Shown here: one piece after another, positions 10,992-56,330 of the stretch
How positions within the stretch are numbered: position 1 is the first letter of the stretch
How the letters are laid out: every line of letters begins with the position of its first letter
Assembly (NCBI GenBank): GCA_951406725.2
Contig: OX597816.1
Coordinates: 139,066,001-139,130,000, forward strand
Reading direction: 5' to 3'
Origin: Octopus vulgaris
Taxonomy: Eukaryota
Length of the DNA stretch: 64,000 nucleotides
Program-made: the position numbers and the translations under genes
The notes under the pieces: generated by a model
Told to the model about the DNA's origin: nothing
The model's database searches: none
What the model saw: the letters and a program-made list of their open reading frames with translations, nothing else

Positions 10992-11038
<47 letters not shown>

Positions 11039-11049
11039 TATATAGAAGG

Positions 11050-11100
11050 AGCTTCTACAGGACTAGAACTGTTTCATTCAAGAGAAATCTTCAGGAAGCT
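11050..11100 (-). ncRNA. Minimal type I hammerhead ribozyme motif (Penelope pLTR-type)
   Basis: Minus strand reads agcttc-CTGAAGA-tttctcttgaat-GAAA-cag-ttctagtc-ctg-TA-gaagct: 6-bp stem I, intact core, short stem II with a U-U closing mismatch, stem III cag/ctg with a CTAG-containing loop, GUA cleavage triplet. Confidence 0.7.
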
Positions 11101-11146
11101 TCCTGAAGATTTCTCTTGAATGAAACAGTTCTAGTCCTGTAAAGCT
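11097..11146 (+). ncRNA. Hammerhead motif, inverted second copy (1-nt deletion in stem I)
   Basis: agcttc-CTGAAGA-tttctcttgaat-GAAA-cagttctagtcctg-TA-aagct. Confidence 0.6.
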
Positions 11147-11229
11147 CCTTCTATATAATAAATTAATTTTACTCTGCTATGTATTGAGTACCTTATTTAC
11201 TGTGGTTAACCCCGATTCAACCCGGGACC

Positions 11230-11296
<67 letters not shown>

Positions 11297-11693: not shown

Positions 11694-11914
11694 ATTTCTT
11701 TACTACCCACAGGGGGCTACACACAGAGGGGACAAATAAGGACAGACAAACGGATTACGTCGACCCCAGTGCGTAACTGGTACTTAATTTATCGACCCCG
11801 AAAGGATGAAAGGCAAAGTCGACCTCGGCGAAATTTGAACTCAGAACGTAACGGCAGGCGAAATACAGCTACGCATTTCGCCCAGCGTGCTAACATTTCT
11901 GCCAGCTCGCCGCC
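11694..11914 (-). mobile_element. SINE family A
   Basis: Reverse complement of the family A head and domain; tail matches the 31513 copy. Confidence 0.85.
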
Positions 11915-12550
11915 TTAATGTATGTATATATACATTAGTATGTGTGTGTCTGCGTCTATATAAGTATATATATATATATGGGGGGGTGCGGTTGTATGTG
12001 TGTGTATGCAATGATACACACACACATGTGTGTGTGTTAGTATGACAGGCGATCTTACTAATTTGCTACTTGCTTACTCTTGTTCCATCTATTATTGTCT
12101 GATTACTTTTCACTTACTATCGTATCATTATATATTCTCTCTCTTTCGGTGTTTAATTTAGATGCTGTTATTTACATTTTTTTCTTCATCATGCTAATGT
12201 TAATATCCATTTTTTTTATTGCCTTTCTATTAAAATACGAGATTTTTCTTTGAAATTTTTTCCTTGTTTTCTATTCTTTTTAGGATTAACTTTCTGAAAT
12301 GAAAAAAAAAAAAATAATAAATTCATACAAAATGAAACGGAAAAAGGAAAATGAGAGATTGGAAAAAAAAAATGCACAGAAATCGAAAATCAGAACAAAG
12401 AACAATAAACTAAACAAAACAGTAAGTAATACGAAGCGGATTGGATTTAAAATAAAGAATTAGTGCCATTTCCAATAAAATCCAGTTTGCAAATTGAAAA
12501 TGTGCACTGTAACACATTAAATGGCTTTTTTTTCTGATGTTTGTTATGTT

Positions 12551-15725: not shown

Positions 15726-15986
15726 CGTACAGTACAATATATTATATTGTCCAAGTATTATTGTATATATGACGTTATTTATGAGTAATATACATATATT
15801 TCCCACGTCATAATTCTGTAAACATGGCGAGTTCTTCCTCTTCCTGTTTAATTTTCTTCCTCTCCTTTCCCCTCCTTCTTTAAACTTTTCTCTCCTCCTC
15901 TCTCTCAAACTTTTTTATCTTCACTCAAAATATATTACTTTCAAACCGGAGCGAAAAGGTATTTTAAAAGAAATCTTTTCAATAAA

Positions 15987-16006
15987 CTTCTATTAATATC
16001 TCCAGG
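15987..16006 (+). other. Candidate 3' splice acceptor upstream of the MARCH exon
   Basis: cttctattaatatctccAG|G with AG at 16004-16005, 22 nt before the ATG. Confidence 0.5.
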
Positions 16007-16027
16007 TTGATCCTTTCAACAGTGAGT

Positions 16028-17278
16028 ATGAATCATCAAGGAAATGTCACGTTACAATTACAACGTGAATATTCAAGGGATGAAAGTAGATCAAATATTA
16101 CTGCTTTGAACACAGTAGAAAATTTCATCGATCAAGACGTCGGGAGCGAAGTGCGAAGTTTTCCCACATTACCACCAGAAATGATATTTTCTCCTCACAC
16201 CTCAAGAAGAGACACAATACAAGATGTAATAACTACAGTAAATGAATCACCAGAAGTTTTGTCAGATGGTAAAGAGCAACTTATTATTAACGTAGAACCA
16301 ACGTCACCTGCAATGACTGACAGTCAGGATGTTATTACCGCATCTTCTTTGACGAAAGACACTAACACTTCAGAAATAGATATAAAAAGCAACTTTGTTG
16401 TAAAATACCATCCGCACTTAGAAGATGTAGAAAAGCTTTCAGGTACTGCACCTAATATCAAAGATAAATCAATTTCAGTTGTTCAACTTGGTAAGGGAGA
16501 AGAGCTATCTGAGAATGTCCATACAGATTTTCAATCTGTAAAAACGGGACATTGTGACAACATATCTCTCAGTACATCTTCTGATGGTGATCGATCTAAA
16601 GATGACACACCATGTTGCCGGATCTGTCACGGTAGTAGCAGCGCAGGACAACTTTTATCTCCATGCTATTGTAAGGGAACGCAAGGTCAAGTGCACATAA
16701 AATGCCTAGAACACTGGCTAAGTTGCACTGGAAGAACAAAATGTGAATTATGCGGATACCAATTTGAGTTCACAGAACAATCTAAATCTTTCTCAGAATT
16801 CATCTTATGTCCTGGAAACCGATATGTAAAGAACTTGCTTTTCTGTGACATTTTATGTTTTATTTTAGTAACACCCCTAACTTTAGCAAGTGTAAGCCTT
16901 GTTATCGCAACTGCTGCTCTGTTAGATTGGAAGGCCTCAATGGAAGTCATAGGACTTATACTATTTGCAGTTTTTGTAATATTTCTCTATATGTTTTGGC
17001 TTATAACAGCTTTGCGTTTTCAGAGGAACATGTGGAGGCACTGGAAATTTCGTAACCGAGTCGTTCGTATCAAATTCGAAAAGTGCAAAACCTCAAATTC
17101 TTCGCGAAGTTCTCCTTGGAGAAATCTCCGTAATCTAGAGAGACATAGAAATGATGCCGAGGATACAGTTCGAAGCACTTTTCAAAGTAATCAACGTCCT
17201 GATTCCTCAAATGTTCAGATATGGTGCTCTACTAATAGTCAGATTTTGGTGATTCCGCGAGAACCTTTGGAAAGTTAA
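16028..17278 (+). CDS. MARCHF2/3: MARCH2/3-like membrane-associated RING-CH E3 ubiquitin ligase (416 aa from first ATG), coding sequence in a single exon
   Basis: Long non-repetitive ORF. C4HC3 RING-CH motif CRICH...SPCYCKGTQGQVHIKCLEHWLSCTGRTKCELC (~16613-16753), then two hydrophobic helices (LFCDILCFILVTPLTLASVSLVI; VIGLILFAVFVIFLYMFWLI) and W..W...N..VRI, as in MARCH2/3. The supplied ORF starts at TTG 16007; first ATG is 16028, with an in-frame TAA at 15983. Confidence 0.9.
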   Translation: MNHQGNVTLQLQREYSRDESRSNITALNTVENFIDQDVGSEVRSFPTLPPEMIFSPHTSRRDTIQDVITTVNESPEVLSDGKEQLIINVEPTSPAMTDSQDVITASSLTKDTNTSEIDIKSNFVVKYHPHLEDVEKLSGTAPNIKDKSISVVQLGKGEELSENVHTDFQSVKTGHCDNISLSTSSDGDRSKDDTPCCRICHGSSSAGQLLSPCYCKGTQGQVHIKCLEHWLSCTGRTKCELCGYQFEFTEQSKSFSEFILCPGNRYVKNLLFCDILCFILVTPLTLASVSLVIATAALLDWKASMEVIGLILFAVFVIFLYMFWLITALRFQRNMWRHWKFRNRVVRIKFEKCKTSNSSRSSPWRNLRNLERHRNDAEDTVRSTFQSNQRPDSSNVQIWCSTNSQILVIPREPLES

Positions 17279-28688: not shown

Positions 28689-28908
28689 TATATATATATA
28701 TATTTACATATATCTATATTCATATGTACACACTCACGCACGCACACATGTTCGTGCATGTGTCAGTGTATGTGTGTATAAGTTATGAGGTAGATTACAT
28801 ACATAATGTAACTTGAAGTGGTTTTATTAACTAAAATTATCCTAGCGATTTGAACACAAAACCTTCCTCTAGGGTATTTATACATACAAATATATGTATG
28901 TATAAATA

Positions 28909-30126
28909 CGAAGGACTGTCGTAAAGTTCATAGGCTCACCTGATCGAGACACCCTCATGGAATGTGACCAAATGTGGTTTATTTTCAATGTGGTTCTGCT
29001 TGCTGTCCATACACTTCTTCCATCAGTGTCGTAGTGCTTGTATCCCATTGGTGAAGCAGTATTCATCCTGTTAGTCCAAAAAATCATCAGTAGCAGACAT
29101 GACATCATCATCACTGTGACAATGGTTTTCGGTGAATTGTTTTTCGTGTCTGGAAACATCATAGTTAGACGGAGCCAAATCAGTAGAATAGTGAGGCAAA
29201 TCAACCAGTTCAAAGTCACAGTCACGCACAGGTGCCATTGAAAGCAAGGATTTTTTTGTCCTGGAGCATTGTCCTCATGAAACAAGATTCCTTTCGTCAG
29301 TTTTCCTGGGCGTTTGGTCTTGATTGCCTTTCGTAACTGCCTCAGCAAGTTGATATGGTACTTTCCCTTGATGGTGTGGCCCGTTTGAAGTTAGTCAATA
29401 AACAAAAAGCCATCACCTTCCCTACAAATGAAACGATATTGGTCTTCTTCGGTTATTTCTATTGTATAGATTGTTTCTTTATTTCTTGCTCAAATTGATG
29501 AACCCTACACTTATCCTAGCTTAGGAAGCGTTCAAGGAAACCTGCAGAATTCGCCGGAAACAGTGTCAGATTTTCCTGTGATGTGATCAATTTAGATCGG
29601 GAGTCAGACGACATAGTACTCACCGAGCTGAAACCTTCGTCGTTTCAAGCTCACCGTGCAGAATATTGCCAGCTCTCTCAAGGTATATGCTTAATAGCAT
29701 TGGATATTTGATTCATAGTCAATCACATCTCATACATCAACATGTAGTGAACACGATCAATGTTTCTTTTGCGGGTGGCAGGGTGTCCAGACCGTGGATC
29801 ATATTCATGACTCTGCCTTCCTCTCCTAAACTCAGTTGTTCACTTTTGCACTGTTGATAAAGCTGGAGCGTATCCTCTAATATAGTAAGAATGTAAGCCT
29901 CAATGTCGTTGGGGACTAAAACCTTTTTCTGCAGGTATTTGATAACAGCACAGTACCAAACTTTGTCCATTTTCATGAGAAGTCGCTACTAGTTACATTT
30001 GAAGTGTTCTTTGAAGAGCCAAATGTCAGTAACCAGGAAATATACAAAGCATTTATTAAGAATAGTTGAAATTTATGCATGTAAGATTTGACAGCTTATT
30101 CATAGTCAGCCTGTGAACTTTTGCAG

Positions 30127-32563: not shown

Positions 32564-32957
32564 ATCTGAACAGCATAATTTTTATATGGTATGCTTTTTA
32601 ATTCTTTGCCCGTTTCCTTGCATACTTTTATTTTCTATTATTTTGGTGCCATCTGGCGGTTGAATTGAGACCTTAGCTCCCATTTCTAGATAAGTTGATG
32701 CTTACTGTTTCCTTAAGGCTTGGTGCTAATCTTATATTTTATAGCTTATAATGCCATTAGACCTGTGAACTGCCCATGTTACTGCTGTTAATATATATTT
32801 TTTTTAATTCATCTAGTTTCAGATCTTTTAAAAAAGATCCACGACCACCCAGGGACGTGGATCCTTTAATTATCAATTAATAATATTTGCCATAGATGGT
32901 ATTAACAGTAGGAACATCTTATTTCGAATGTAAACATTCGAATGTTTTTTGTTTATG

Positions 32958-33033
<76 letters not shown>

Positions 33034-33091
33034 CGTGCACGCGCGCGTATATTTGTATGTATCTATGTGTGTGTATATATATATATATATC

Positions 33092-33455
33092 AACAAGTCC
33101 TTATACCTCTTTTTTGGTTTATGTGGAGGTCGTTCTACTTTAGCTAACTCTCCATAAAAGAGTTGTTTTGGCATCCTTGAATCCTTCATCCTGACCAGAT
33201 GACCACTCCATCTGAGCCTTTGCTTTAACACAAGAGCTTCTATACTTTCACACCGAGAGCCTTCCAATATTTCAAGATCACTGATTTGGTCCTTCCACTT
33301 AATGCCATAGATCCGTCTGAGACACATCTGATGGAAACGTTCCAGTTGTTTAAGGTGGTATCGATATGTGACCCACGTCTCGCAGGCATACAGAAGAGAA
33401 GGGAGCACACATGACTTGTACACCTTTATCTTTGTCTCTCTGCATATGTCTCGCC

Positions 33456-33458
<3 letters not shown>
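33092..33458 (-). mobile_element. RTE-clade LINE fragment (post-RT C-terminal region)
   Basis: Open ~120-aa stretch TKIKVYKSCVLPSLLYACETW...LERFHQMCLRRI..IKWKD...RLRWSGHLVRM.DSRMPKQLFYGEL...KPKKRYKD; (TA)n on both sides. Confidence 0.9.
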
Positions 33459-33511
<53 letters not shown>

Positions 33512-33513
<2 letters not shown>

Positions 33514-33749
33514 TATGGTGCTGCTAAGAAGCAAAATAGAACTCAAAATAGAACTTTCGTTCAACAAATCGAGCCCAGGACTTATTCTTTTTAAGCCTAG
33601 TACTTATTCTATCGGTCTCTTTTGCCGAGCTGCTAAGTTACAGCGACATAAGCACACCAATATCGGTTATCAATCGATGGTGTTGGTGGTGGAGGGCAAA
33701 TACAGACACACAAGCAAACACACGCACACACAGACAGACACACACACAC

Positions 33750-36849: not shown

Positions 36850-38290
36850 ATGCCTAGACGTGAAAACTTGAGTCAAGACCAAATATCGAAAAGGTTATTG
36901 AAATTAGATGAAGAATGGGAAGGACATAGCAGAGATTCCTTCTATGGCTCTGAAGATGTAGTGTGAAAGTGATTGTGTGCTGGACAGTTTAGGTCTGCTT
37001 GCCACCCAATTATGAATGAGCAATATGTTTCTAGAGACAGACAAGAAGTTTGGCATTCTAATCCCCTTACTCAAGCAGCAGTAAGAACTTCATCTTGCAA
37101 TATTTTGCGCCAATAATGTGGACAATTTCGTCTTGCTAAAAGGTCTTGCGATAGCATTGAAAAATGTTTTACTATCTTTATGTGCCAGAATTTTCTTGAA
37201 GTAATTCGTAAATGGGCAAATATTGCAGGCCAGGTTGTTTACAAATATAAATGGAACGAAATTGATCACTCTGAACGAAAGAAATTTATTGGACTCATTA
37301 TTTTTATAGGTGTTTATAAATCTAAACAGGCAAATGTCACACAGTTATGGAGTCAAGAAGATGGCCACCCGGTATTCAACACATTTATGAGCCGGAGATT
37401 TCAATAGACTTTACAAGTATTGCGCTTTGATGATCAATCATAGTGCAAGAATAAAGAGAAGTGATGATAAATTGGAGCCCATAAAAGAAATATTTGAAAT
37501 GTGGATTCAGAATTTGCAAGATGGATATGTTCCAAGTTCATGCATGACAGTTGATGAACAATTAGTTTCATTCAGAGGCGTTGCCCATTTCGGGTATATA
37601 TTCCTTCAAAACCTAGGAAATATGGAATTAAAATTTGGGCAACATGTGACACTGAAACATCTTATGACTGGAACATTAAAGTCTACTCTGGAAAAGACCC
37701 AGTAAAAGGGAGAGAGACAAATCAAGGTTCGAGAGTTGTTGAAGATCTAGTAAAAGAACTTGAAAATACTGGTTGCAATATAACTTCTGATAATTTTTTA
37801 CTAGGATTGGCTCGAAAGTCGCTTAGCAAAAAAACAACTTTAGTTGGAACAATTAGAAAGAACAGATTTCAACTTCCAAATGTTTTCACAACCAAACAAA
37901 GAAGACGATATTTAGCCTCATTTGAGATTCCTCAGCCAAAGCAAAACGGAAGATGTTCTTTGTGTGGCCCCCAAAAAGACAGGAAAACTCGTACTACATG
38001 TAAGAATTGTAATACCTATGTTTGCCAAGAACATACCAATATTGTCTGCATTTACTGCCATGAAAAGCTGTAATTCTGTATTTTTATAATTTTAAAATTT
38101 ATAATATATTCTGTAAGCTGTATTTTTTTTTAATTAAAATTTGTGAGAAACAGTAATTCTTCATTCACCTGATAGCATATATTATGTAGCTAAGAAACAG
38201 TGGTAGTTTGAATAAAATTTAATTAAAAGAAAAATATTGGGTTCATTGGACTCAGTTGGTAATTAGTGACATACATTTCTTCTGGGTTAA
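36850..38290 (+). mobile_element. Defective piggyBac transposon
   Basis: DKLEPIKEIFE...MTVDEQLVSFRG.CPFRVYIPSKPRKYGIKIW...ITSDNFF...LVGTIRKNR; C-terminal Cys-rich CSLC...CKNCNTYVCQEH..C..C; 3' end GGG|TTAA at 38284-38290; stops, frameshifts and an internal deletion before the Cys-rich domain. Confidence 0.9.
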
Positions 38291-43624: not shown

Positions 43625-45965
43625 CATGTCTAATTGAGATTACCGGAAAACAGCGGAAATAATCAACACACGATCTTTTAAGCAGATTCACAGCAAACTA
43701 AAACACGTCGAGGTTTCCTTCAACCTGATTCAGGGTAATTTTGAAAAACATCGTTGATCAAGCACAACAACAACAATACCCAGAAAACCATGAACAGCAA
43801 CAAGCAAAACTACAACGACAACGACAGATCTTTGTTGACACTGTCACGAATATATGTGCTAAACACACTCCTCCAAGACCTGTGAAGAAAACTAAGTGCA
43901 GAATTCCTCAAAACAGAAAAACGATTATCAGAAAAACAAAAAGGACAAACAAAAAAGTTAAACTAAAATACTGCCAGCAGCCACAAATAAATTCGACGGC
44001 AATCACCCTGCTCGAATCAAAAAAATATAACTTCCAACAATATATGAATACCATCATCAATAACCAAAGAACAGCTGAGGAGAAACGGGTCGTTGAGATA
44101 ATCAAACTCAACCCTAAAGTGTTCTCTTTCGCAAAAAAACACAAGATCACTGTTTCCACTGATGGCCCTCTAATTGATGAAAATGGCATTCTCCAAGATA
44201 ATGACCAAACCATGAATGAGATACTGCAGAAACAGTGCTGCTCTGTTTTTAGCAATCCTGATATGGCCGATCTGGACTGTATCACCGATGTTAATCCTCA
44301 ACACACTACATCAGACATAACGTTTGTCGACCCTGATATCTTAGCGGCAATAAACGAAAATTAAGCACAATTCAGGATTAGGCCCTGATAGGTTCCCTGC
44401 TTGTGTCCTGAAGGTACGTCGACACCAACTTGCGTCTCCTGTTGCTAATCAGTGGAGGAACTTACTGGATGATGGTTATATTTCTGAAAACATTTTGTCC
44501 CAGTCTGTTGTCCCAGTTTTCAGAAAGTGAAACAAGTCCCTTGCAGTGAACTATCGGGCCGATCTCGCTCACCTCTCATGTCATCAAGGTATTTGGGAGA
44601 GTGATGAAATCACGGATAACCCTCTTTCTTGAAAGCAACGGACTGCTGACCCCCAACCAACATGGATTCCGTAGTGGAAAGAACTGCCTAACGCAGCTCC
44701 TGCATCACCTTTATGACATCTTGAAGGCTTTGAGAGAGGGTTCGAATGCTGATGTCATCTACCTTGATTTCAGCAAGGCCTTTGACAGGGTTGATCATAA
44801 GATCCTCTTGAAAAAGCTATCCAGCCTTGGTATCTCTGGAAAGTTGCTACAATGGGTCAACTGTTTCCTGACAGGCAGAACCCAACACGTTGTAGTCGAA
44901 AGAGTAAAATCAAGCCCAGCCAAAGTCAGTAGTGGTGTTCCTTAAGGCACTGTATTAGGCCTACTTCTTTTCATCATCTACGTCACTGACATTACAGACA
45001 TCATCAAGCATAGTAATATAAGAATCTTTGCAGATGACTCCAAGATACAGTAGGTCATCAATGAAGTGGGTGACTGGGCATGCCTTCAGTCATATCTACC
45101 AGCTGTCATTCAAGAGGCAGAAAAGGAAAATATGCTGCTGGACGAGGAAAAGTTTGAGTTAATCTACTTCGGAAAAGATGAAACCCTGAAACTTCCATAC
45201 TCCTTTCTCTCGGGTGAAACTCTCATGGCATCCAACAACATCAGAGACTTGGGAGTAATAGTGGACAACAACATAAGCTGGGCTGCTCATGTAAACAGCA
45301 AAGTTGACATAGCCCGCAGAATGTGTTCCTGGATTCTAGGAACTTTCCAGTCGAGAGATATCCACACCATTATCCTTCCCTTCTTCACTTTAGTCCGACC
45401 CCACCTTGAATAGTGTTGTCCATTGTGGTCTCCCCACGCAAAACAAATTATCATGAAAAGTGAAGCACCTCAAAGGTCAATTAAAAAAATGATAGATGGT
45501 ATGACAGGCCTTGAATATTGGGGGTCGACTAGAAAAGCTCTAGCTTTATTCTTTCCAACTCCGACGTGGGTGCTACATCATCAGCATTACCCAAATGATG
45601 TTGGCATCGCCTTTAATATACACCCAAGACTTCAACCCCGTGCTATTCGCCCCCGACAAAAATCATACGCGCATCACATAACAACAATACGGCACAATTA
45701 TTTCACCTCAAATGGTCCCACTCTCTTTAACACTACACCAAAACACATTAAAGCAGAGACAGACGCCATAAAATTCAAGAAGTCTTTGGATAAATTCCTC
45801 CAAAAATTCCCAGGTAAACCTTCTACACCCGAATATGTCTCCGTAACCAATAACTCTCTACTTGAGTTGGGTATGTTGTCCAAGTCCTGATTTAAATGGC
45901 TTTGCCAGATGGTGCTATTAAGTTAGACATGGTCCGGGCCAATACTGGCCGAAACCTATCAAAGT
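43625..45965 (+). mobile_element. 5'-truncated CR1-like LINE with decayed reverse transcriptase
   Basis: QHGFRSGKNCLTQLL...IYLDFSKAFDRVDH...SGVP*GTVLG.LLF...FADDSKI...IRDLGV...LVRPHLE; multiple stops and frameshifts. Confidence 0.9.
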
Positions 45966-47720: not shown

Positions 47721-49708
47721 ATATTAAACAACATTCAATACAAGCGAAATGAGAAAATTTCATTGGTCAACTGGTACTGAAATTTAAACTAAATAAAAAC
47801 ATTTTTATGAACTTTGCATCAATTTAATCTTTATTTATTGCAGTAGTTTGAACTTTAATGACATTTTAAACTGCACAGTATATTTTTATTAACGCGAAAA
47901 CATTTCTCAGTTTGACACTTTTGTCTTATACATGCACTTAACAAATCCTTGCCTTGTTTCTGCAGTTTGTCGTGTTGAAGCTAACCTGAATGAGATTTGT
48001 TTATGCACCAAGATGTCAATAAAAGTTTTCTTGCTCACAGAAAAATGTGATTTGCTACATATAATAATGCCGTTTCAAAAGACCACTTACGTCATACCCA
48101 ACGCACAGAAATCACCATGATGGGCCAAAGTATAGTGATCTCTTCAACATGTTACTCAAAACAACGCGCTGTACGATACAAAGTAGAATATAAATTATAA
48201 GGAAAATATATTAGACTAACTATTGACACGCAATGCCTATGATCAAACACTTACCAAAGAAAATGCAAGGGAAAAACAATAATAACATGTAGTAAAACTT
48301 TTATGCAATTTTCGTTTCTGATGCCTCTCATGCAATATGTCGGCCGAACGATTTAGAATAAAGCATGTCCAATTTACGATTTGGACATGCTTTATTCTGT
48401 CCACATTTGAGTCTACTTCTGTATACCTGCTAGTCTTGTTTAGCCCCAAAGGCCGATAAACAAGCTAACAATCTAGTACCATCCCTCTCATTTTCTATAT
48501 TTCGCTTTCGCTCTGGTAGAAATTGTCAATGCACAGGCATGCAAAGGAATGGAATTCACCGAATTAAAATGTTCAGGACACGTTGTGTATTATAACAGTG
48601 TCTAGAAAACTCCAGTAGTAGTAGTAGAGGGCATATAATATATATGTGTGTGTGTACGTGTGTGTGTGTGTCTATGTGTGTGTGTTTCTGTATATATGTA
48701 TATATATATATAATAATAATATAAATAATATATATGTATATATACATACGTATACGTATATACATATGCATATGTGGGCACAAGACGTCACACAACGTAA
48801 ACAACAAAAAATACGAAGTACGAGGACATGAAATATGAACTTTTTGCGAGCAACGAAAGAAACAAACGGAAAACAAGACAAACACAAAGAACGACCCTTC
48901 ATCAGTTGTCGGCTGTTTTTCTAATCCGTATTTCGAGCATTTCACGACAAGATACGCCTTCGATACGCTACCCGAAAGCAAATTAAATAAAATTTGGGAT
49001 TTTGCTAAGCAGTGTTTCTGAATGAGCAGAATAAGGTAAGTTGAAATATGTTTGTCACATATTTCGACTGCTAAAGGACAAATACATTGCAGTTACCGTG
49101 GAGAAAAATCTCTCTTATGGCAAAAGTGTGTAAAAATGCCCGGTCCGTTCAGTGTTGCCATCTGTTAGAAAACTCAGACATCGATGTTTCAAACTTCTTG
49201 GCTATTTTCGATGAGATGTACGTAAGAGAGGCAGCTCCAAACGGACTTATAAAGCTATAGCATTATGTATAATTCAGACAGTACGTTGACTGATTTGCCC
49301 TAGTAGATCGCCCGATCGAAAGAAAATAATTTGCCTAATTCTGCTCATACATAGACACTGCTTAGCGCTAATAATTCGTTATATTTTTTTACCCTCGTGT
49401 CCACCTTTTCCACGCTTGTCTTTGGAATCTCATGCAGCGTCAATAACCGTGTGCGTCTTGGAAGTACTCCGTGTTGGTAGAGCATGCCCTGAATTTTCCT
49501 GGAATCTCTGATCTTTGAATCCTCCTCAAACACTTATCTGCTTGTTTGTCAGTAGTAGAGGTAACATTGCTTCTGTCCTGGAGCGAATTATCAAACCTGT
49601 TTCCAAGGCATGTGATCGGATTTACGTCTAATGGTGGATAACGTGATATATATATATATGCCCCAGCATGGCCGCGGCCTTCGGGCTAAAGCATTTTAAA
49701 GGATTTAA

Positions 49709-54499: not shown

Positions 54500-56330
54500 G
54501 GAGATATAGACTGAGAGGGAGGCTTTCAACACAAGCAAAGTGAAAGACCTGGAGAATCTGAATTTGTTTAGGCTACTAAAATATATAGATATAGGGAAAT
54601 GAGAGTGTCTCCCATATGACTTTGAGAATAACAGTGACAGTGACTCGAACAGACAAATTTAGAGTTTCCCAAAGGAACACCATTTTGAAAGGCCTGAGTC
54701 TCGAGATACCGTTGATCTTGTTGCACCCAGATGGTAACTTGGTGGTCATGGACACGAACGGTAGCGAAGGGGATGCCGTCAAACTAGAAGCCGTGTACGT
54801 CCTGACTGGGGCTGGGCAACCAAATTTCTTCAGGTTTGTGAAGGTTTTCTCGGAACATCAACGCTCTTTAGTATCAGTAGGCGATTGAAACGCCATCTTG
54901 GATGCAGGTTTGAATTGTGTGAGGCAAGCTGTTAGGAGGGTGCTGCAAAAGCCTCGCAAACTTACTTAGATGTTTCCAACTGTCTGACAGATACCGATTA
55001 GATTTCCTGAATGCGCCAATGTGGATATATGGAAATAGCATTGGGTCATCCAGATCGTATCTAGACAGATAATTTTGTTGATAGTATATCATATGGTGTC
55101 CACAATTCAAATTTTCGGCTAAATACACCACAAACTTATGATTTTTACGGTTGATCTAGATAAGCTGCATAGATGGGATGATGGCAGCTGATGAAATACG
55201 GCAGATATAGCTGGCTGCACAAGAGAGAGGTCGCTGGGGTTCCCGTACGAAATTTACCGTTATATGCAAGACATGTTTGGTGGCCTCTGACGGCAGAACG
55301 GGAAGATTCCCAGTTCTACGAAGCTAGTTGTAATGGTACTGCTGAAAAATGATCCGAACAAGGGGGTATGATATAGACTTTCAGAACTGTAAGTCCGCTA
55401 AATACAATGATGAAGATTTTGGTCAGTCTGTTAGTTGAGAGGAAGTTGGTTTTTATCGTTTATACTTTCATAGGTTAGGCACGTCATCCAAGACAGATCT
55501 TTCCACAACAACCTTTGTCTCATGGTATACATCATAGAAAGTGGTGGGGAGAGTAAGGAACCTGGCATGGGTTCTTTATTCCTTCTTACTCTTCACTATA
55601 GATGGGTTAAAGGCTTTCGACAGAGTTGACCATCAATACTTGATATCAGTTCCCATGGTGATTGCTTTCATTCCAGTCTTTAGAGTTTGATTGCAGAAGC
55701 ATACAGCAACATCTGCTTGATGGTCAGTTCAAATGTCCATATATTGGAACAGTTTAGAACTTGTCAGACCGAACGCGTTCGGTCTGACAAGTTTACCCCC
55801 TCTCGCTCCTTCTGCACGTGCTGGCTGTCGAATAACTACTGCAAAAGTTAGAAGTTTCGTGCAAAAGTTAGAAGTGAACTAGGATGTGAGAGAGCTGTGT
55901 CAGCGTAGGTGGACGACATCATCGTAAAACTGTTGGAGGCCAAACTCATCGAGATAATTGTCACTACTCTGAGGAAATATGAACCGGTGACAGGAGCTAA
56001 AATTAACCAGAAACTCTATGTACCCTGCAAACTGGAATCTGGAGAGGTAGGACTATGCCACCGAGGAGCGTTGTAGGGGGTTAGAAACCGTTCTATATGT
56101 ACTCGAGTATTGCTCTCTTTGGGAGAACTATCGAAAAGCTGTTATTCCGTGTGGGAGGGATTGGGTTAACGGGCGACTCCTTTGTGAAAATCACGCCACC
56201 TCCTTCTTTTAGTCTGAAAGTTTGGGCAGTTTGTTTCGGATTGGAGGCTATGGCAAAAGAGAATGTGTGGTAGACTATACGATAAATGATTGAAGACAGA
56301 CACTTTCTCTTCGGTCAAGCACTCATGGAC
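54500..56330 (+). mobile_element. Decayed L1/Tx1-clade LINE (APE endonuclease plus RT remnants)
   Basis: HPDGNLVVMD...LEAVYVLTG...LVSVGD*NAILD (APE); SYLDR; KAFDRVDHQYL; RSV*Q..PLS.LL.VLA.E; SA*VDDI; YE.VTGAKIN. Confidence 0.75.
55758..55793. repeat. Perfect 36-bp palindrome inside the Tx1-like LINE
   Basis: aacttgtcagaccgaacg|cgttcggtctgacaagtt. Confidence 0.95.

What the first reader, a model, noticed from the sequence alone, without database searches (positions are those of the whole stretch)
11034..11231. Zero-spacer ~129-bp palindrome that encodes a hammerhead ribozyme core on both strands
Seen: 11034-11162 is a near-perfect palindrome (one indel) centred on AAGCTT, and the element sits between (TA)n tracts. 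Each arm reads stem I-CUGAAGA-stem II-GAAA-stem III-GUA-stem I; the minus-strand copy has a perfect 6-bp stem I. Known: Penelope-like element pseudo-LTRs carry minimal type I hammerheads with self-complementary stem III loops that act as dimers, and PLE insertions often have inverted pLTR ends. Inference: fold-back priming at the self-complementary AGCT of stem I produced a two-way cassette. A read-through transcript could either self-cleave or fold into a ~64-bp hairpin, a potential ADAR or siRNA substrate, so two RNA fates would compete.
Basis: partly seen in the sequence, partly recalled or inferred. Interest (0 to 1): 0.72.

Follow-up and report, generated by a model that had tools for sequence, protein, structure and literature searches.

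The report
Twin-copied Penelope palindrome with ribozyme scar
This mirror-image DNA is one of 706 same-centred stubs of a Penelope-type jumping gene, each likely made by joining two short DNA copies of the start of the element's RNA head to head; the layout is known, but its single mismatch lies at a recurrent lesion beside the predicted ribozyme cut site, which may record that cut.

Summary
The palindrome and both hammerhead cores are real. It is a stub of a young Penelope-like retrotransposon with Hydra-clade motifs: 4,028 tail-motif hits, 706 identical centres and an intact 713-aa parent ORF in this genome. The palindrome is built anew at each insertion. The best model is that both cut DNA strands prime on the RNA at two internal sites. 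Both cDNAs run to a probable capped start 29 nt behind a TATA box and anneal through AGCT. Fold-back is disfavoured: the parent has no hairpin there, either arm can be the longer, and both can carry an extra G. In read-through RNA the hairpin beats the ribozyme by about 70 kcal/mol, so the two fates should not compete. The architecture is published, and this scan has reported twin priming on other DNA (419 notes hold the search words). What I found in no paper searched: the window's one indel belongs to a hot spot of G losses at ribozyme positions 1.1 and 1.4 (500 arms), almost only in short arms and rarely mirrored. Its cause is open. No cleavage or start site was measured.

The parts
10992..11033 (.). 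Left (TA)n target tract
   Evidence: sister copies also lie in (TA)n
11033..11100 (-). Inverted arm: from the inferred RNA start (AGCT) to priming site A, the pLTR end; 68 of 68 nt identical to the parent
   Evidence: L152:889-956; outer ends cluster at +61 to +72 in 60 of 63 copies
11050..11100 (-). Intact minimal type I hammerhead motif: core CUGAAGA 11094-11088, 6-bp stem I, predicted cut after 11056
   Evidence: cleavage untested
11097..11100 (.). AGCT shared by both arms: the junction microhomology and inferred transcription start (+0)
   Evidence: TATAAAT-like box 29 nt upstream in all parent haplotypes
11097..11146 (+). Hammerhead motif with G1.1 missing: CUGAAGA 11103-11109, stem II 11110-11121, GAAA 11122-11125, GUA 11139-11141
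11141..11142 (+). The single indel: loss of the first G after the predicted cut site, one of 290 arms with this loss
11163..11232 (+). Tail, on one arm only, ending at priming site B; in the parent it runs on into the 5' UTR and ORF
11233..11289 (.). Right (TA)n target tract; a target-site duplication cannot be read inside (TA)n

Best explanation
The element is a promoterless head-to-head stub of a Penelope-like retrotransposon inserted in (TA)n, likely built from two separate short cDNAs that were each primed from one cut DNA strand, ran to the probably capped 5' end of the element's RNA and annealed through their self-complementary AGCT ends. Shown: parentage, copy number, arm end points and arm-to-arm concordance. 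Inferred steps: (1) a TATA promoter in the pLTR starts RNA at the A of AGCUUC, the first base of hammerhead stem I. (2) The endonuclease cuts both strands of (TA)n and RT starts at two internal, TA-like RNA sites, about +65 (A) and +130 (B). (3) On the 5' pLTR copy both cDNAs run off after 65 and 135 nt, often adding a C opposite the cap. (4) End joining fuses them, most often by the 4-nt AGCT overlap, which gives the zero-spacer palindrome. The hammerheads are passengers here and would be sequestered in a hairpin in any read-through RNA.
For: Parent: the arms are 100% and 98.6% identical to the 5' end of a copy with a 713-aa RT-endonuclease ORF. Made anew: 63 of 99 consecutive tail hits on C1 have an inverted arm with varied centres, and subfamily variants agree between arms (position +10: 46 of 46; +60: 57 of 58). 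Fixed end: 39 of 126 arm ends fall exactly at AGCT, 54 at +1 to +10, and 3 at -1 to -10. The TATA-to-AGCT spacing is constant while 14 of 30 upstream positions vary among 5 haplotypes. Extra G: genome-wide the base before AGCTTCCTGAWGATTTC is G 971, A 1854, Y 3170; 30 of 30 sampled G cases are non-parental, on A arms and B arms alike; where the base is not shared with parent or partner it is G in 12 of 14; some junctions carry it on both arms (L064, L125, L194/195). Independence: the A arm reaches 3 nt or more further 5' in 16 of 63 and the B arm in 19 of 63; lesions near the cut site differ between arms in 22 of 50 pairs and are never mirrored there. A+B rule: 19 of 20 long divergent pairs have one arm of each end type. 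Precedent: purified Poseidon protein cuts and extends both strands from two internal RNA sites that bound the tail (PMC11167929).
Against: No start site, cap or cleavage was measured. Several extra-G cases end in CAGG-like templated inserts, so 12 of 14 overstates the clean signal. Asymmetric centres could partly be later deletions from perfect palindromes. Concordance between arms is also expected from fold-back or from subfamilies active at different times. The tail motif used for sampling excludes one subfamily, and the sample is the first 69 Mb of C1 only (99 of 100 listed hits). The Poseidon precedent is another clade, and there the start site was not homologous to the target.
Confidence: 0.75

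Rival explanations
1. Fold-back: one cDNA snaps back at its 3' end and is copied to site A.
For: Arms nearly always share subfamily and length class: both short in 57 of 63, mixed in 3. Three head-to-head arrays carry the same locus-specific unit on both arms. Nine of 30 junctions at +45 join AGCT-ending arms through stem I complementarity and could be true snap-backs.
Against: The parent offers no stem at AGCT, so the centre needs a 1-bp prime on an untemplated T. The A arm holds sequence absent from the B arm in 16 of 63 (L117 by over 100 nt). B-arm lesions are not copied: of 52 lesion arms with a readable partner, 45 partners are intact, 5 carry another lesion and 2 (one locus) match. L194/195 has an extra G on both arms with one base between.
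Confidence: 0.12
2. A non-autonomous palindromic element that multiplies as a unit, with hairpin or two-way ribozyme function.
For: 706 identical centres; 40 of 40 best-scored copies have the inverted arm.
Against: The unbiased sample shows many centres, of which about 9 of 99 are the perfect one. The perfect centre recurs in several subfamilies with mirrored variants. Short copies lack the TATA box and the ORF-start region.
Confidence: 0.07
3. Assembly or sequencing fold-back artefact.
For: No read or contig bridges this locus's own flanks.
Against: The arms have different, biologically fixed outer ends; junctions are diverse; raw reads give depth across the centre and short-read contigs of two other runs show head-to-head joints.
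Confidence: 0.02

Closest known systems
EN+ Penelope-like insertions with an inverted 5'-truncated pLTR and a one-sided tail (PMC3846280, passages read; PMC8557442, passages and section 11 read)
   Same: Head-to-head arms, palindrome at the junction, tail at one end, TATA and initiator-like signals in the pLTR.
   Different: Here the whole insertion is 200 nt, the tail is about 65 nt rather than 30-40, and the centre is fixed at the ribozyme's first base. PMC3846280 explains such palindromes by self-priming on an antisense template, which these copies do not favour.
Hydra clade of C-terminal EN+ PLEs (PMC8557442, section 11)
   Same: DKT, RWR/RWK, CxCX5C linker, CxxC and CxH around the conserved E and N, (TA)n target, hammerhead in the pLTR.
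   Different: Hydra elements are described as generally under 3 kb. This family carries 2-3 kb of microsatellite-like 3' sequence (unit about 4.3 kb in L168). No tree against named references was built.
Minimal type I hammerheads of metazoan PLEs (PMC4209133, parts 1-2 of 4 read)
   Same: Core, cut triplet, palindromic loop 3; opposite-strand pairs of such motifs were already noted in Schistosoma.
   Different: Stem II is 3 bp with U-U in place of the conserved G10.1-C11.1; stem III has 4 bp.
Poseidon_Ac in vitro mechanism (PMC11167929, parts 1-2 of 4 read)
   Same: Both strands extended; two internal start sites downstream of the hammerhead bound the tail.
   Different: That study did not treat joining of the two cDNAs in the parts read, and found no reads starting or ending at the cut site. 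Both sites here are TA-like.
Metazoan non-LTR retrozymes (PMC7229834, passages; bioRxiv 10.64898/2026.07.22.740005, part 1 of 5)
   Same: Three arrays of 271, 277 and 333 nt hammerhead units derive from this family.
   Different: The window element is not a tandem; the arrays are head-to-head with A and B ends.

Membership tests
EN+ Penelope-like element (pLTR fragment) | Arms match the pLTR of an element with one RT + C-terminal GIY-YIG ORF | tested here: met
   The ORF itself has no Pfam RT or GIY-YIG hit; homologs of 39-42% identity hit RVT_1 (E 9e-6, below the curated cut-off) and GIY-YIG (E 1e-5).
EN+ Penelope-like element (pLTR fragment) | Tail at one end, equal to the sequence behind the 5' pLTR | tested here: met
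EN+ Penelope-like element (pLTR fragment) | Partial-tandem and inverted arrangements | tested here: met
   (L168)
EN+ Penelope-like element (pLTR fragment) | Target-site duplication | tested here: inconclusive
   Both ends lie in (TA)n
Hydra clade | DKT, RWK, CxCX5C linker, CxxC and CxH motifs, (TA)n target | tested here: met
   the parent has RWR where most aligned homologs have RWK
Hydra clade | Phylogenetic placement with named Hydra families | not tested
   No named reference proteins were fetched
Minimal type I hammerhead | Core CUGANGA, GAAA, UH with stems I-III | tested here: met
   Among 5 haplotypes, variation in +0 to +51 is confined to N7, loop 2 and loop 3. Plus arm lacks G1.1.
Minimal type I hammerhead | G10.1-C11.1 pair | tested here: not met
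   U-U at this place in all haplotypes
Minimal type I hammerhead | Palindromic loop 3 that allows a dimer | tested here: met
   CUAG (ACUAGU in one subfamily); cofold pairs the loops between two arms
Minimal type I hammerhead | Match to an Rfam hammerhead model | tested here: not met
   No hammerhead family among 105 matches at E <= 5
Minimal type I hammerhead | Self-cleavage at GUA | not testable with these tools
   Indirect only
Non-LTR retrozyme | Head-to-tail units, each with a hammerhead | tested here: not met
   The window element is head-to-head; three sister loci do meet it

The most novel reading that the evidence does not exclude
The G1.1 and G1.4 losses, with the arms that begin exactly at +45, are scars of reverse transcriptase crossing a ribozyme-cut RNA still held by stem I. 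The genome then stores about 500 records of in-vivo cleavage by a minimal PLE hammerhead. Short arms come from linear capped RNA; unscarred long arms and arrays come from uncut or cleanly rejoined circular RNA, which would give the ribozyme its role in making full-length copies.
Probability: 0.3. Interest if true: 0.72.

Novelty: new member of a known kind. Interest (0 to 1): 0.45.

Why it matters
How PLEs make their inverted ends, which strand is the template, and whether their weak hammerheads cut in cells are open in the papers read (PMC3846280, PMC4209133, PMC11167929). This young, high-copy family gives testable answers: a named start base, two priming sites, a 4-nt junction and a lesion hot spot at the cut site. 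As a locus it is ordinary, one of hundreds. As a class the stubs may add many 65-bp hairpins to nuclear RNA, which was not shown.

Tried and rejected
Rfam: no hammerhead match. Tandem tail hits at 5-8 kb spacing on C1 were segmental repeats or separate stubs, not full elements. Pfam and PDB sequence searches of the parent ORF gave nothing useful. Linkage test for a crossover at the cut site versus the start site: 167 of 295 arms typed, too few recombinants to tell. Splicing as the source of array units: the unit junctions show no splice donor in the parent (read). Quasi-palindrome switch with loop 3 as the cause of the +48 loss: rejected, since the subfamily that lacks it is hit as often (3 of 23 against 18 of 122 short arms; 21 of 60 selected). 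Expression: no RNA holder on record; contigs of guessed-RNA runs cover the pLTR and ORF but cannot show start, strand or level. Sequence look-up of earlier findings: none. Literature: searches listed no paper on twin cDNA joining, cap-G or cut-site scars in PLEs; most hits were seen as listings only, subscription journals are not covered, and supplements were searched only for PMC8557442, so supplements of the other papers may bear on this.

Full report
Observation. The palindrome is as described: perfect 43-bp arms at 11056-11141, extending to 11034-11162 with one indel, z = -21 against shuffles, between (TA)n tracts. Both arms carry a hammerhead core. The minus copy has a 6-bp stem I; the plus copy lacks G1.1, the first base after the predicted cut. 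Stem II is weak (3 bp, U10.1-U11.1) and Rfam finds no hammerhead.

Family. The right arm finds 817 candidates in the 2.8-Gb genome; all 40 scored copies also have the inverted arm. A 24-nt tail motif has 4,028 exact hits and the 16-nt centre 706, against about 0.6 by chance. One copy showed how the tail continues in the parent. That led to 106 hits and to a copy with an intact 713-aa ORF whose ATG lies 183 nt behind AGCT. The window arms match its 5' end at 68 of 68 nt and 98.6% over 141 columns. Homologs hit RVT_1 weakly and GIY-YIG. The ORF has the DKT, RWR, CxCX5C, CxxC and CxH motifs and the (TA)n target given for the Hydra clade (PMC8557442 section 11). No tree was built. The host looks like a cephalopod to me from recalled repeat resemblance; this was not tested.

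The palindrome is made at each insertion. I took 99 of the first 100 tail hits on C1 (one was the partner arm of another). An inverted arm lay within 420 nt in 63; the script missed a few partial ones. Twenty ran on at least 110 nt into upstream parent sequence. Centres vary, and about 9 are the perfect AGCT overlap. Subfamily variants agree between arms: 46 of 46 at +10 and 57 of 58 at +60. The motif excludes one subfamily, which other samples cover.

The centre is probably the RNA's 5' end. Counting the A of AGCT as 0, 39 of 126 arm ends fall at 0, 54 at +1 to +10 and 3 at -1 to -10. A TATAAAT-like box lies 29 nt upstream in all five haplotypes compared, although 14 of 30 upstream positions vary. 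The parent has T or C before AGCT, yet 971 sites have G there, none of 30 sampled being parental. Where neither parent nor partner supplies the base it is G in 12 of 14. An untemplated G at a 5' junction is the known trace of copying an m7G cap (established knowledge of LINE insertions; no call). Several of the 12 end in templated CAGG-like inserts; clean cases are L174, L177, L196 and L194/195.

Two cDNAs, not a fold-back. Outer ends fall at two sites: A (+61 to +72 in 60 of 63 inverted arms) and B, the tail end. Of 20 long divergent pairs picked, 19 have one of each; they mirror from 100 bp to 3.4 kb per arm. This fits a purified Poseidon protein that cuts and extends both strands from two internal sites (PMC11167929). 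The A arm reaches further 5' in 16 of 63 and the B arm in 19. Extra G occurs on both arm types, at times in one junction. Two cDNAs ending ...GGAAGCT-3' anneal over AGCT and give exactly CAGGAAGCTTCCTG, while a single cDNA has no stem to fold on. Against this: later deletions can mimic asymmetry, and arms nearly always share subfamily and length class (57 both short, 3 both long, 3 mixed). I read that as one RNA copied twice, or RNAs from one source. Three head-to-head arrays (271, 277, 333 nt units) have the same locus-specific unit on both arms; two end at A and B, and one ends in a short arm of another subfamily. Rolling-circle copying or repeated template jumps could make them.

RNA fate at this locus. 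The stub has no TATA box. A read-through transcript from either side makes the antisense arm first, and the hairpin is 71-74 kcal/mol better than any fold that keeps the ribozyme. Cleavage is therefore unlikely here. Editing is untested; one guessed-RNA run shows A>G at 11133 in 27.7 of 503 depth, a weak hint.

The one indel is a hot spot. In 197 arms not selected on this region, indels map to +45 (G1.1) 10 times and +48 (G1.4) 19 times, and at most once elsewhere in +30 to +52. Control segments show 4 of 143 and 3 of 136 length variants. Lesions occur in 22 of 148 short arms and 1 of 49 promoter-bearing arms (p = 0.018). Genome-wide, 290 arms lack G1.1 (about 60 of the first 100 listed lack G1.4 too) and 210 lack G1.4 only. 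Of 60 sampled, 57 lack the TATA box, and 45 of 52 readable partners are intact. Non-homologous joins or inserts exactly at +45 are 10 of 30, against 2 of 30 at +40 (my manual classes; p = 0.02). Short-read contigs of two other runs lack the G in about 6-8% of depth, which argues weakly against an assembly error; all 8 raw reads had the G. A loop-3 quasi-palindrome cause is rejected. RT crossing a ribozyme nick explains +45 and the short-arm bias but not obviously +48. RT slipping in a folded stem I, or repair near a short palindrome, remain open.

Comparison and verdict. Inverted pLTRs with palindromic junctions (PMC3846280, PMC8557442) and opposite-strand minimal hammerheads (PMC4209133) are published, so this is a new member of a known kind. 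I had set down the twin-cDNA reading before consulting earlier notes. The scan has reached it on other DNA: 419 notes in at least 46 genomes hold the search words, and most of the 8 shown give this reading; these are not independent support. No note held all my words for cut-site scars, though two report junctions at cut sites in other families. My paper searches listed nothing on cap-G or such scars in PLEs, within the library's limits. Interest 0.45.

Noticed in passing
L270, L263, L275, L168 (G000:C1 and C8): The element carries 2-3 kb of (TG/TA)n-rich 3' sequence, 92-96% identical between unrelated loci of one subfamily. It may seed much of the genome's microsatellite-like DNA, including its own (TA)n targets.
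   Followed up: partly
L155/L156 (C8:91.47-91.48 Mb), L157/L170 (C5:37.48 Mb), L158 (C2:64.63 Mb): Head-to-head retrozyme-like arrays of 271, 333 and 277 nt units (promoter, hammerhead, tail, ORF start), up to about 30 units, in (TA)n.
   Followed up: partly
window 15986-17278 (+): 430-aa open frame with a RINGv domain (PF12906, E 1.8e-10), MARCH-like, 5 kb downstream; whether the palindrome lies in its 5' intron is unknown.
   Followed up: partly
window 55758-55793: A second zero-spacer palindrome with 18-bp arms, unrelated to this family.
   Followed up: no
window 48355-48398: Inverted repeat with 18-bp arms and an 8-nt spacer.
   Followed up: no
window 11700-11920: A SINE-like repeat that also recurs beside several fetched loci (recognised by eye and from recall).
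   Followed up: no
window 28878-29390, 32953-33603, 37558-38073, 43729-45890: Open frames that look like mariner, RTE, piggyBac and CR1-type transposon fragments (labels recalled, not tested).
   Followed up: no
L067/L068 (G000:C1:29.042-29.048 Mb): A two-ORF element (685 and 1149 aa) whose second ORF starts like an AP endonuclease of a LINE (recalled).
   Followed up: no
L058, L196, L292: Foreign genomic or ORF pieces are captured between or next to the arms, as in polymerase-theta-type end joining.
   Followed up: no
L387-L389 (G000:C1:151.33 Mb): A 60-nt unit holding the G1.4 loss is repeated three times inside one insertion.
   Followed up: no
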